From: Blastocatellia bacterium
GTDB taxonomy: Bacteria; Acidobacteriota; Blastocatellia; RBC074
Assembly (NCBI GenBank): GCA_043736395.1
Contig: JAYTCQ010000354.1
Location: forward strand, 3,723-67,722
Direction of reading: 5' to 3'
DNA length: 64,000 bases
Below the pieces are notes generated by a model, which saw only the letters and a list, made by a program, of their open reading frames with translations, did no database searches and was not told where the DNA came from. Position numbers and translations under genes: made by a program. This document shows positions 45,476 to 45,784 of the stretch, in pieces (within the stretch, counting starts at the first letter, position 1; each line of letters begins with the position of its first letter).

Positions 45476-45784
45476 TTAGCTGGCGAGGTATTCTAAATAT
45501 TTAATCGAATGCGATCCTGGTTGAACCTGAACTTTTTGCATCAATCCCATCATCTTGCGATGTGCGCTGATGAATTCCTGGCTCTGGCGATAAGCCTCAT
45601 ACGATTGACGATTTTCCCAGCGTGCCATCAGAGTGAATTCGCAAGGATCGGTTTCAGTCCGAAATGCTTCTGTGCTGATAAATCCTTCAAAGTTATCCAC
45701 CAAATGTTCACGGTTACGATACAGATGATCAATGCCTTCGATATTTTCAGGTGCGACGCGGAATACTGAATAAACTAAAAACAT
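45476..45784 (-). CDS. ABM (antibiotic biosynthesis monooxygenase) domain protein; candidate non-canonical heme-degrading oxygenase.
   Basis: ~100 aa ferredoxin-like ABM fold pattern 'ARWENRQSYEAYRQSQEFISAHRKM' (W...Y..............H). The N-terminal catalytic Asn of IsdG/MhuD is not evident. Confidence 0.55.
   Translation of the reverse strand: MFLVYSVFRVAPENIEGIDHLYRNREHLVDNFEGFISTEAFRTETDPCEFTLMARWENRQSYEAYRQSQEFISAHRKMMGLMQKVQVQPGSHSIKYLEYLAS

What the first reader, a model, noticed from the sequence alone, without database searches (positions are those of the whole stretch)
45476..45784. ABM monooxygenase as a possible non-canonical heme oxygenase supplying biliverdin
No canonical HO-1/HemO or HugZ-type heme oxygenase is recognisable in the locus, yet an FDBR needs biliverdin. 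The only oxygenase-like gene is a 102-aa ABM-domain protein (the fold of the IsdG/MhuD heme degraders) directly downstream of the kinase and upstream of the FDBR. It lacks the N-terminal Asn of IsdG, so its function is open.
Basis: inference. Interest (0 to 1): 0.5.

Follow-up and report, generated by a model that had tools for sequence, protein, structure and literature searches.

The report
ABM protein paired with bilin reductase
A small IsdG-like (ABM-fold) protein sits immediately upstream of a bilin reductase gene here and in eight other bacterial lineages that show no ordinary heme oxygenase nearby, so it is probably an undescribed heme-opening enzyme that makes the pigment precursor for bacterial light-sensing proteins.

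Summary
A 102-aa ABM-domain gene (45476-45784, minus strand) lies 54 nt after a Ser/Thr kinase gene and 11 nt before a ferredoxin-dependent bilin reductase (FDBR). They sit in a pre-PcyA-type cluster: Fer2, two V4R proteins, a phycobiliprotein-like globin (BBAG), kinase and FDBR. No ORF of 150 aa or more in the 64 kb matches a canonical or HugZ/ChuS-type heme oxygenase (HO).

New evidence: the ABM-FDBR gene pair is conserved. It occurs in five lineages of the window's own rare ABM clade. It also occurs in 4 of 4 contigs sampled from the nearest outgroup clade, which has a different cluster type (B12-binding protein, photoglobin-like protein, ABM, FDBR). Gaps range from -16 to +38 nt. Both clades carry Ser-Tyr-His where IsdG enzymes carry Asn-Trp-His, and they keep the Arg and aromatic residue of the heme pocket. 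The closest curated families are all IsdG-type heme degraders, far below their cut-offs.

Best reading (about 0.55): a non-canonical heme oxygenase feeding the FDBR. Catalysis and product are inferred, not shown.

Counter-evidence: two related clusters lack the ABM. One lineage keeps a His-less ABM without an FDBR, and that gene is under purifying selection.

I found no paper linking ABM proteins to FDBRs. This is a new variant of a known kind.

The parts
45476..45784 (-). ABM-domain protein, 102 aa. Carries the 'Ser-Tyr-His' variant of the IsdG-type pocket: Ser6 (codon 45767-45769), Tyr65 (45590-45592), His75 (45560-45562), plus Tyr22 and Arg25.
45465..45475 (-). 11-nt ABM-FDBR spacer carrying AAGGAG directly after the ABM stop codon, consistent with coupled expression.
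   Evidence: Read directly from the sequence. Equivalent junctions in other loci are -16 to +38 nt.
44658..45464 (-). Ferredoxin-dependent bilin reductase, 268 aa, with a pre-1-like active-site signature: Asn96 at the PcyA His88 position and Glu113 at the PcyA Asp105 position.
   Evidence: Pfam Fe_bilin_red E = 7.6e-26. Alignments to PebA and PEBB. Residue numbering. Signature compared with Table 2 of PMC13446030.
45839..47317 (-). Ser/Thr protein kinase, 492 aa, in the position of the SpkG kinase next to the cyanobacterial slr0144-0149 cluster.
   Evidence: Pfam Pkinase E = 8e-39. Syntenic in L010, L013, L015, L016, L018 and L023. The SpkG reference is in PMC10151467.
47404..48120 (-). V4R-domain protein, 238 aa as listed (the start may lie further in).
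   Evidence: Pfam V4R E = 2.4e-8. 48-54% identical orthologues in L010, L015 and L018.
48078..48590 (-). Phycobiliprotein-like globin (BBAG-type), 170 aa. The presumed bilin acceptor.
   Evidence: Pfam Phycobilisome E = 1.5e-25. NCBIfam ApcA and ApcB hits are far below their cut-offs. Cluster definition from PMC10151467.
48599..49213 (-). 204-aa Ala-rich protein of unknown function with an internal repeated motif (LAVRPWK..L.FLSG / LAVQPWK..L.WLSG). A gene of similar size occupies the same slot in L018.
   Evidence: No Pfam or NCBIfam hit. Translation. L018 gene table.
49234..49905 (-). V4R-domain protein, 223 aa.
   Evidence: Pfam V4R E = 7.5e-19. 78-81% identical in L015 and L018.
49943..50428 (-). 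[2Fe-2S] ferredoxin-like protein, 161 aa. The likely electron donor to the FDBR, and by inference to the ABM protein.
   Evidence: Pfam Fer2 E = 3e-8. 58-63% identical in L015 and L018.
50425..50928 (-). 167-aa protein of unknown function, first gene of the array. Homologous to the C-terminal part of larger proteins that accompany the cluster elsewhere.
   Evidence: blastp/tblastn E = 3e-24 to the L001 458-aa protein and E = 6e-16 to the L018 392-aa protein. No Pfam hit.
41100..44636 (-). 1178-aa coiled-coil protein with a conserved N-terminal domain of about 140 aa. It is always the next gene after the FDBR, or after the ABM where the FDBR is missing.
   Evidence: N-terminal domain matches in L001, L013, L016, L022, L023 and L024. 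No Pfam hit. The L018 counterpart carries HATPase_c.

Best explanation
The 102-aa ABM protein is a non-canonical, IsdG-like heme oxygenase dedicated to chromophore synthesis.

Proposed mechanism (inferred):
- As a homodimeric alpha+beta barrel it binds heme b in the IsdG-type cleft.
- His75 is the iron ligand. Arg25 and Tyr65 hold the propionates. Tyr22 and Tyr65 pack on the macrocycle. Ser6 takes the place of the distal Asn, probably through a water.
- With O2 and electrons, probably from the cluster's [2Fe-2S] ferredoxin, it opens the macrocycle to a linear tetrapyrrole, most likely biliverdin IXalpha.
- The co-translated FDBR next door reduces that product to a phytobilin, which loads the BBAG globin.
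- Tyr in place of Trp should relax heme ruffling towards canonical-HO-like chemistry.

What is shown: the gene, its fold class, the residues at the pocket positions, and the conserved pairing with FDBR genes in loci with no recognisable HO.

What is inferred: heme binding, catalysis, the electron donor, product identity and hand-off to the FDBR.
For: 1. Conserved gene pairing. The ABM lies immediately upstream of an FDBR in the window and in L022, L011/L017, L014 and L013/L015/L016 (a Polyangiaceae MAG). ABM identity there is 55-83% and G+C 47-72%.

2. The same pairing in the nearest outgroup. That clade has 104 proteins, mostly from Chloroflexota MAGs, 25-32% identical to the window ABM. All 4 of 4 long contigs looked up (L025, L026, L027, L028/L029) show ABM-FDBR with start/stop overlaps or a 5-nt gap. 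They belong to a different cluster type with a B12-binding protein and a globin-like protein.

3. No Pfam Heme_oxygenase in the window. None in the L013 ORFs scanned. None in the precomputed Pfam tables of L025-L029. Published pre-1 and pre-3 clusters typically include an HO (PMC10151467 and PMC13446030).

4. The upstream 'X' proteins of the outgroup operons are globin-like, not HO. hhalign gives 85% probability (E = 6e-6) against the BBAG profile and 0.1% against Synechocystis HO1.

5. The closest curated and solved relatives are all IsdG-type heme degraders: HmuQ, PRK13314/5, IsdI, IsdG, HmoB and MhuD.

6. The IsdG pocket positions are the most conserved positions. In the outgroup clade Ser6 is 107/108, Tyr65 104/108, His75 108/108 and Arg25 108/108. 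They are invariant in all FDBR-linked members of the window clade. Arg25 aligns with MhuD Arg26 and Tyr22 with MhuD Phe23.

7. The only clade member not next to an FDBR (P0004) is the only one that has lost the His (H75R).

8. Precedents. IsdI W66Y still binds heme through His76, with less ruffling and more HO-like properties (PMC3464526). MhuD R26S makes biliverdin IXalpha and wild-type MhuD makes a minor amount (bioRxiv 731950 and PMC8801480). HmuQ was reported to give biliverdin (Puri and O'Brian 2006, from my own knowledge; the paper is not held).
Against: - Two of the three residues that define IsdG-family catalysis differ (Asn to Ser, Trp to Tyr). Asn-to-Ala variants of IsdG and LFO1 are impaired (PMC5557675).
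- Scores against the curated heme-degrader models are far below cut-off: 37 bits against 130.
- Characterised IsdG-type enzymes mostly give staphylobilin, mycobilin or unknown products rather than the biliverdin IXalpha that FDBRs use.
- Related clusters L018-L021 and L023 go kinase-FDBR with no ABM, and L018 has no HO within 10 kb. A local heme-opening enzyme is therefore dispensable.
- The FDBR-less, His-less ABM of L001-L005 shows 7 synonymous and 0 non-synonymous differences between two strains, while its neighbours diverge. It therefore has a selected function that needs neither the FDBR nor His75.
- More distant Ser-Trp-His relatives are N-terminal domains of PAS-histidine kinases, a GGDEF protein and a B12-binding protein, which hints at a sensor role for this branch of the fold.
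- Structure comparison gives only a generic ABM fold.
- No biochemical data exist.
Confidence: 0.55

Rival explanations
1. The ABM protein binds a tetrapyrrole but does not cleave it. It would act as a heme or bilin sensor, or as a chaperone that takes the FDBR product and passes it to the globin or to the signalling partners (kinase, coiled-coil protein). Biliverdin would come from a canonical HO elsewhere in the genome.
For: - The FDBR-less L001-type locus keeps the ABM next to the coiled-coil protein and a w167-like protein. That ABM is under purifying selection despite H75R.
- Ser-Trp-His relatives are sensor-type N-terminal domains of PAS-HisKA-HATPase, GGDEF and B12-binding proteins.
- MhuD binds biliverdin with nanomolar affinity, so the fold can hold bilins.
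- L018 and L023 show that the cluster works without the ABM.
- Published pre-2 genomes sometimes have the HO elsewhere.
Against: - The sensor-fused relatives are all Ser-Trp-His. The FDBR-linked proteins are stand-alone Ser-Tyr-His, a separate group.
- The near-absolute conservation of the proximal-His position (108/108 plus all FDBR-linked window-clade members) fits an iron ligand. In the MhuD-biliverdin complex that His flips out and is not used.
- BBAGs and Cph1 load bilin in E. coli with only an HO and an FDBR, so no carrier is required (PMC10151467 supplement).
- No HO was seen in any ABM-containing locus.
Confidence: 0.2
2. The ABM protein is a bilin-tailoring enzyme, a cofactor-less oxygenase or an isomerase. 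It would act on biliverdin or on the FDBR product, for example to set the 3E/3Z configuration or to oxidise or rearrange the bilin. It would not act on heme.
For: - ABM-fold enzymes include cofactor-independent oxygenases and the LsrG isomerase, and these rank among the best structural matches.
- Pre-PcyA enzymes give unusual 3E-phytobilins, and a PEB-to-PCB isomerase is being sought in red algae (PMC13446030 and PMC13193486).
- Tight coupling to the FDBR would fit a step either before or after it.
Against: - Sequence relatives with known function are heme degraders, not LsrG, ActVA or SnoaB types. LsrG appears only once, weakly, for one outgroup protein.
- The conserved residues coincide with the heme-iron, propionate and ruffling positions of IsdG and MhuD.
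- Recombinant pre-PcyA enzymes make their products without such a partner.
Confidence: 0.1
3. The ABM protein is an unrelated small ABM enzyme or stress protein, such as a quinol monooxygenase type, and its position next to the FDBR has no pathway meaning.
For: ABM genes are common and functionally diverse. The fold search returns many unrelated ABM proteins with similar scores.
Against: - The pairing recurs in nine lineages and two cluster types, with overlapping or nearly abutting reading frames. All 4 of 4 sampled outgroup members show it, although FDBR genes are rare outside cyanobacteria.
- The window clade is a single 50%-identity cluster among 1.84 billion representatives, and wherever context is available it sits in this cluster family.
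Confidence: 0.03

Closest known systems
IsdG/IsdI (Staphylococcus aureus) and the wider IsdG family of heme oxygenases, including B. cereus IsdG, B. subtilis HmoA/HmoB and Chlamydomonas LFO1
   Same: Same ABM/ferredoxin-like fold and size. Proximal His at the same place with the same 10-residue spacing from the aromatic residue (Tyr65-His75 against Trp67-His77). Conserved Gly-Phe and Trp56 structural residues. These are the best-scoring characterised relatives.
   Different: Asn7 becomes Ser6 and Trp67 becomes Tyr65, both invariant here. Far below the curated HMM cut-offs. Genomic role differs: paired with an FDBR inside a photoreceptor or bilin cluster rather than with iron-regulated heme uptake. 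Their products (staphylobilins plus formaldehyde, or an unknown product for LFO1) are not FDBR substrates.
MhuD (Mycobacterium tuberculosis), including its R26S variant
   Same: Same fold. His75 ligand. MhuD Arg26 and Phe23 align with Arg25 and Tyr22 here. Shows that an ABM-fold enzyme can produce biliverdin IXalpha: a minor product of wild type and the main product of R26S. Also binds biliverdin tightly.
   Different: MhuD has Asn7 and Trp66 and makes mycobilins. The Arg whose loss redirects MhuD to biliverdin is retained here, so any biliverdin-forming chemistry would arise differently, through the Ser and Tyr changes.
HmuQ (Bradyrhizobium japonicum), NCBIfam NF053649
   Same: Best-scoring curated family for the window protein and for most outgroup members. 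An ABM-type heme degrader reported to yield biliverdin (from my own knowledge; the paper is not held).
   Different: Only 37 bits against a cut-off of 130. HmuQ sits in a heme-uptake (hmu) locus, not next to an FDBR.
Canonical HO of pre-PcyA (pre-1/pre-3) and some pre-2 gene clusters (Rockwell et al. 2023; Frascogna et al. 2026)
   Same: Same proposed pathway position: supplies the FDBR of a Fe-S / V4R / BBAG cluster, or of a B12-binding / globin cluster.
   Different: Entirely different fold: an all-alpha HO of about 200 or more residues against a 102-aa alpha+beta barrel. No sequence relationship.
TT1380 (Thermus thermophilus, PDB 1IUJ), function unknown
   Different: TT1380 carries the Asn-Trp-His triad. 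No FDBR context is known for it.

Membership tests
ABM superfamily (Pfam PF03992, dimeric alpha+beta barrel) | Match to the family HMM above the gathering score, and a ferredoxin-like beta-alpha-beta fold of about 100 residues | tested here: met
IsdG family of heme oxygenases | Catalytic Asn on strand beta1 (IsdG Asn7, MhuD Asn7, LFO1 Asn41) | tested here: not met
   Ser6 at this position. Invariant in the window clade and 107/108 in the outgroup clade. Triad definition from PMC5557675.
IsdG family of heme oxygenases | Trp that ruffles the heme (IsdG Trp67, IsdI and MhuD Trp66) | tested here: not met
   Tyr65, invariant in the window clade and 104/108 in the outgroup. The engineered IsdI W66Y variant keeps heme binding and about half activity according to that paper's abstract.
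IsdG family of heme oxygenases | Proximal His that ligates the heme iron (IsdG His77, MhuD His75) | tested here: met
   His75 aligns with it. 108/108 in the outgroup and all FDBR-linked window-clade members. Replaced by Arg only in the FDBR-less P0004.
IsdG family of heme oxygenases | Score above the curated cut-off of an equivalog model (HmuQ NF053649, IsdG NF009841, IsdI NF009838, PRK13314/5) | tested here: not met
   Best is HmuQ at 37.3 bits against 130. PRK13314 and PRK13315 give about 20 bits against 115-119.
IsdG family of heme oxygenases | Binds heme 1:1 and degrades it with O2 and a reductant | not testable with these tools
   No biochemical data. Needs purified protein.
Canonical heme oxygenase (HO-1/HemO/BphO, Pfam PF01126) present in the locus | An ORF matching the Heme_oxygenase HMM | tested here: not met
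   No hit among the 45 non-nested ORFs of 150 aa or more in the window. AF2 of the unassigned 209-aa ORF was too poor to judge (pLDDT 42).
Pre-PcyA / BBAG gene cluster (Rockwell et al. 2023) | An FDBR of pre-PcyA type with an Fe-S protein, two V4R proteins and a phycobiliprotein-like globin in one cluster | tested here: met
   Fe_bilin_red, Fer2, two V4R and Phycobilisome domains in consecutive minus-strand genes 44658-50428. FDBR signature Asn96/Glu113 resembles pre-1. No phylogeny was made.
Pre-PcyA / BBAG gene cluster (Rockwell et al. 2023) | A canonical HO as a typical cluster member ('typically', 'sometimes' in the paper) | tested here: not met
   Absent from the window. The ABM gene sits next to the FDBR instead. 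The paper notes that HO is also absent from Chloracidobacterium clusters.

The most novel reading that the evidence does not exclude
Ser-Tyr-His ABM proteins form a distinct, previously unrecognised class of heme-opening enzymes whose biological role is chromophore supply rather than iron acquisition. Translationally coupled to FDBRs, they would make biliverdin IXalpha, or a new bilin that these FDBRs prefer. The product would serve two kinds of non-cyanobacterial photoreceptor systems: BBAG/V4R clusters, and B12/photoglobin clusters. In this genome the system may control gas-vesicle buoyancy.
Probability: 0.45. Interest if true: 0.8.

Novelty: new variant of a known kind. Interest (0 to 1): 0.68.

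Why it matters
Bilin chromophores for phytochromes, phycobiliproteins and the newly found BBAG and photocobilin proteins are thought to start from a canonical heme oxygenase. The literature on the origin of phycocyanobilin synthesis (Rockwell 2023, Frascogna 2026) treats HO as the cluster partner of pre-PcyA enzymes and notes unexplained cases without one.

A conserved ABM-FDBR pair would give a second, structurally unrelated entry into bilin biosynthesis. It would explain HO-less clusters. It would extend the IsdG-type fold from iron scavenging to pigment synthesis, with a natural Ser/Tyr variant of a well-studied active site that could show how ruffling and distal hydrogen bonding set product chemistry. 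It might also provide a 100-residue enzyme for making bilins in heterologous hosts.

It is directly testable with existing co-expression systems.

Tried and rejected
- **Cryptic canonical HO in the window.** Pfam on all 45 non-nested ORFs of 150 aa or more, NCBIfam on the unassigned cluster ORFs, and PDB sequence searches of the 209-aa and 167-aa ORFs all gave nothing. Single-sequence AF2 of the 209-aa ORF gave pLDDT 42, so no fold search was run. This point remains inconclusive.
- **Identifying the source genome, to look for hemO/hugZ elsewhere.** The genome-contig scan with the FDBR returned only a Polyangiaceae MAG. The cluster look-up gave no names or accessions. The source organism is still unknown, and an Acidobacteriota-like gene content is only an impression.
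- **Isolate genomes carrying the pair.** tblastn against plasmids found only cyanobacterial FDBRs and unrelated ABMs. The viral contig scan found nothing.
- **The idea that the 186-245-aa 'X' proteins upstream of the outgroup ABMs are divergent HOs.** Rejected. hhalign gives 85% probability to the BBAG globin profile and 0.1% to HO1.
- **Promoter and terminator scan of 40000-51500.** Counts were at or below shuffled expectation, so it is uninformative apart from showing no obvious terminator within the array.
- **Rfam and tRNA scans of the window.** Nothing found.
- **The Puri and O'Brian 2006 HmuQ paper.** Could not be read.
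Full report
**1. The observation**

The ORF at 45476-45784 (minus strand) encodes 102 aa.
- It matches Pfam ABM (PF03992) at E = 4e-14 over almost the full profile.
- It has a ribosome-binding site (AAAGGAAG) upstream.
- It follows a 492-aa Ser/Thr kinase gene (45839-47317) by 54 nt.
- It precedes a 268-aa ferredoxin-dependent bilin reductase gene (FDBR, 44658-45464; Fe_bilin_red E = 8e-26) by 11 nt. That spacer holds AAGGAG.

**2. The surroundings**

The gene belongs to a co-directional minus-strand array with gaps of -43 to +86 nt. In order:
- a 167-aa protein of unknown function
- a [2Fe-2S] ferredoxin-like protein
- a V4R protein
- a 204-aa protein of unknown function
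- a phycobiliprotein-like globin (Pfam Phycobilisome E = 1.5e-25)
- a second V4R protein
- the kinase, the ABM protein and the FDBR
- an 1178-aa coiled-coil protein

This is the 'pre-PcyA cluster' of Rockwell et al. 2023 (FDBR, Fe-S protein, two V4R proteins, BBAG globin). That cluster 'typically' also contains a heme oxygenase (PMC10151467; PMC13446030).

The FDBR has Asn96 at the position of PcyA His88 and Glu113 at the position of PcyA Asp105. That is the pre-1 signature in Table 2 of Frascogna et al. 2026. Characterised pre-1 enzymes reduce biliverdin to 3E-phytochromobilin.

No ORF of 150 aa or more anywhere in the 64 kb matches a canonical HO, a HugZ-type or a ChuS/HemS-type protein.

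**3. How rare the protein is**

A word-indexed search of 5.8 billion proteins found only five members, at 55-100% identity. An exhaustive HMMER search of 1.84 billion cluster representatives found one 50%-identity cluster at E < 1e-30. The next full-length hits were at about 1e-17.

**4. Synteny within the window's own clade**

The ABM gene is immediately followed by an FDBR gene in:
- the window and its near-identical contigs L006 and L007
- L022 (G+C 0.50; ABM 83% identical over the part present)
- L011/L017 (G+C 0.60; a different, ParA-like upstream gene)
- L014 (G+C 0.69)
- L013/L015/L016 (G+C 0.71; a Polyangiaceae MAG), where the order Fer2-V4R-BBAG-V4R-kinase-ABM-FDBR-coiled-coil is kept

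L010 shows BBAG-V4R-kinase-ABM and then the contig ends.

**5. Synteny in the nearest outgroup**

The best full-length hits after the window clade form a clade of 104 proteins, many from Chloroflexota MAGs. I looked up four members chosen only for contig length. All four lie directly upstream of an FDBR gene, with 4- or 16-nt overlaps or a 5-nt gap: L025, L026, L027 and L028/L029.

These loci are a different cluster type:
- a CarH-like B12-binding protein
- a 186-245-aa protein 'X' whose stop overlaps the ABM start; in L026 its place is taken by a 724-aa protein made of repeats of the X-type sequence, ending about 30 nt before the ABM
- the ABM protein
- an FDBR with Asn/Asp, the pre-2-like signature

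X is globin-like, not an HO. hhalign gives 85% probability (E = 6e-6) against the BBAG profile and 0.1% against Synechocystis HO1. None of these loci has a Pfam HO within 7 kb.

The ABM-FDBR pair therefore recurs in nine lineages. It spans two ABM clades that are 25-32% identical to each other and two FDBR types that are about 27% identical. Because FDBR genes are rare outside cyanobacteria, chance adjacency is not credible.

**6. What kind of ABM protein it is**

- A profile search of PDB sequences returns TT1380 (8.6e-9) and an uncharacterised B. cereus ABM protein (1TZ0, 8.2e-6), then B. cereus IsdG, IsdI, HmoB, IsdG and MhuD.
- NCBIfam's best family is HmuQ at 37 bits against a cut-off of 130, then two 'heme oxygenase' equivalogs. 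The outgroup behaves the same way.

An almost gap-free alignment maps the pocket residues as follows:

| Window ABM | IsdG-type counterpart |
|---|---|
| Ser6 | IsdG/MhuD Asn7 |
| Tyr22 | MhuD Phe23 |
| Arg25 | MhuD Arg26 (propionate contact) |
| Tyr65 | IsdG Trp67 |
| His75 | IsdG His77 (iron ligand) |

The IsdG-like 10-residue aromatic-to-His spacing is kept.

These positions are the most conserved ones. In the outgroup clade Ser is 107/108, Tyr 104/108, His 108/108 and Arg 108/108. All are invariant in the FDBR-linked members of the window clade.

Among the 150 best representatives, stand-alone Ser-Tyr-His proteins (24) are distinct from Ser-Trp-His proteins. 52 of the 57 proteins of 190 aa or more are Ser-Trp-His, and all ten of those scanned carry the ABM domain fused to other parts: PAS with or without histidine kinase, GGDEF or B12-binding.

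**7. Mechanistic reading**

The IsdG family is defined by the Asn-Trp-His triad (PMC5557675). This protein keeps the His and replaces the other two residues. It is therefore not a member by that definition, but it may work similarly.
- IsdI W66Y still ligates heme through His76. Its Tyr hydroxyl mimics the Trp-propionate contact, the heme is less ruffled, and the properties approach those of classical HOs (PMC3464526).
- MhuD makes a little biliverdin. A single substitution (R26S) makes biliverdin IXalpha its main product, and the fold binds biliverdin with nanomolar affinity.

I infer the following. The Ser-Tyr-His proteins bind heme through His75 and open it with O2 and ferredoxin-derived electrons. 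They then hand a biliverdin-type product to the FDBR encoded next door. This places them in the pathway slot that a canonical HO fills in published clusters.

**8. Evidence that does not fit neatly**

- Two related clusters (L018-L021 and L023) go kinase-FDBR-coiled-coil with no ABM. L018 has no HO within 10 kb. A local heme-opening enzyme is therefore optional.
- The P0004 lineage (L001-L005) has the ABM between a w167-like protein and the coiled-coil protein. It has no FDBR, BBAG, V4R, Fer2 or kinase within 10 kb.
- P0004 is 77/102 identical to P0002. At otherwise invariant positions it differs only at A74S and H75R, plus two conservative changes. The catalytic His was therefore lost together with the FDBR.
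- Two strains of this lineage nevertheless differ by 7 synonymous and 0 non-synonymous changes in the ABM gene, while the neighbouring genes diverge at the protein level. This His-less protein is still under selection for some other role, perhaps with the coiled-coil protein.
- The sensor-fused Ser-Trp-His relatives keep a binding or sensor role on the table.

**9. Rival explanations**

| Reading | Confidence |
|---|---|
| Non-canonical heme oxygenase feeding the FDBR | about 0.55 |
| Non-catalytic tetrapyrrole-binding accessory or sensor | about 0.2 |
| Bilin-tailoring enzyme | about 0.1 |
| Unrelated hitch-hiker | about 0.03 |

The remainder is unassigned.

**10. Novelty**

- No held paper contains both 'antibiotic biosynthesis monooxygenase' and 'ferredoxin-dependent bilin reductase'.
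- Searches for IsdG with PcyA, ABM domain with bilin, and IsdG with phytochrome and bilin biosynthesis return only papers that contrast IsdG-type enzymes with the bilin pathway.
- The pre-PcyA papers and the photocobilin paper do not mention ABM or IsdG proteins.
- Schneider et al. 2021 list 'ABM monooxygenase' among oxygenases seen in photoglobin operons, without connecting it to bilin synthesis.

I therefore rate this as a new variant of a known kind: an IsdG-like heme-degrader fold with a new active-site signature and a new physiological partner. Biochemical confirmation is still needed.

**11. Verdict**

Interest is 0.68.

Noticed in passing
window 29008-40453 (minus strand): A complete gas-vesicle gene set lies directly downstream of, and co-directional with, the bilin cluster. 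It includes GvpA (35734-36000), three GvpF/L genes (36859-37671, 36146-36862, 32363-33184), GvpN-like AAA (33844-34800), GvpG-like (31932-32333), ArsA-type ATPase (29970-31913), GvpJ/S-like (29736-29969, 29008-29337), GvpK-like (29361-29723), Hsp20 (39899-40453) and a CDC48-like AAA (37748-39895). Gaps from the FDBR to the CDC48-like AAA gene are at most 21 nt (76 nt to the first GvpF/L). This suggests bilin- or light-controlled buoyancy in a non-cyanobacterium.
   Followed up: partly
L001-L005 (ABM at L001:10001-10309): An FDBR-less variant of the locus: PatA_N-like protein, w167-like protein, ABM, coiled-coil protein. Its ABM has H75R and A74S. Between two strains the ABM gene shows 7 synonymous and 0 non-synonymous differences, whereas the neighbouring genes are only 88-96% identical in protein. 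The His-less protein therefore has a selected function.
   Followed up: yes
L025:6267-8013, L026:4795-8034, L027:5784-7776, L028:5590-7962: A stereotyped set in (mostly Chloroflexota-like) MAGs: B12-binding protein, globin-like 'X' protein, Ser-Tyr-His ABM, pre-2-like FDBR, with overlapping or closely abutting reading frames across X-ABM-FDBR. L026 has a 724-aa protein made of about four X-type repeats and a PduO-type cobalamin adenosyltransferase next to the FDBR.
   Followed up: partly
proteins P0021, P0023, P0035, P0058, P0060, P0091, P0097, P0106, P0115 (not in the window): A related Ser-Trp-His ABM branch occurs as the N-terminal domain of PAS-HisKA-HATPase sensor kinases and before a GGDEF domain, and C-terminal to a CarH-like B12-binding domain in P0097. 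This suggests an uncharacterised ABM-type sensor module.
   Followed up: partly
L018:2412-12941 and L023: Closely related clusters run PatA_N protein, w167-like protein, Fer2, V4R, 194-aa protein, BBAG, V4R-like protein, kinase, FDBR, coiled-coil protein with HATPase_c. In these the kinase stop abuts the FDBR start, there is no ABM gene, and there is no HO within 10 kb.
   Followed up: partly
window 41100-44636 (minus strand): An 1178-aa coiled-coil protein whose N-terminal domain of about 140 aa is conserved in every variant of the cluster. It is 77% identical in L022 and 24-33% in L001, L013, L016, L023 and L024. The long coiled coil itself is variable. It has no Pfam match, and the L018 counterpart ends in HATPase_c.
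   Followed up: partly
window 48599-49213 (minus strand): A 204-aa Ala-rich protein between the V4R and BBAG genes with an internal duplicated motif (SLAVRPWKDTLQFLSG / SLAVQPWKNLLAWLSG) and no family match. A 194-aa gene occupies the same slot in L018.
   Followed up: no
window 45839-47317 (minus strand): A Ser/Thr kinase is embedded in the cluster and is syntenic in five or more lineages. This recalls the SpkG kinase beside the cyanobacterial slr0144-slr0149 V4R/BBAG/ferredoxin cluster, which phosphorylates ferredoxin 5 (cited in PMC10151467). The kinase link may therefore be ancestral.
   Followed up: no
window 52584-56645 (plus strand): A CbbQ/NorQ-type AAA ATPase (283 aa) is followed by a 1043-aa VWA/CobT-like protein, divergent from the mnmA gene upstream of the bilin cluster. 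This is a MoxR/VWA chaperone-type pair of unknown client.
   Followed up: no
window 57882-58652 (plus strand): A bacterial Thg1-like tRNA-His guanylyltransferase homologue (Thg1 plus Thg1C domains), an uncommon gene in bacteria.
   Followed up: no
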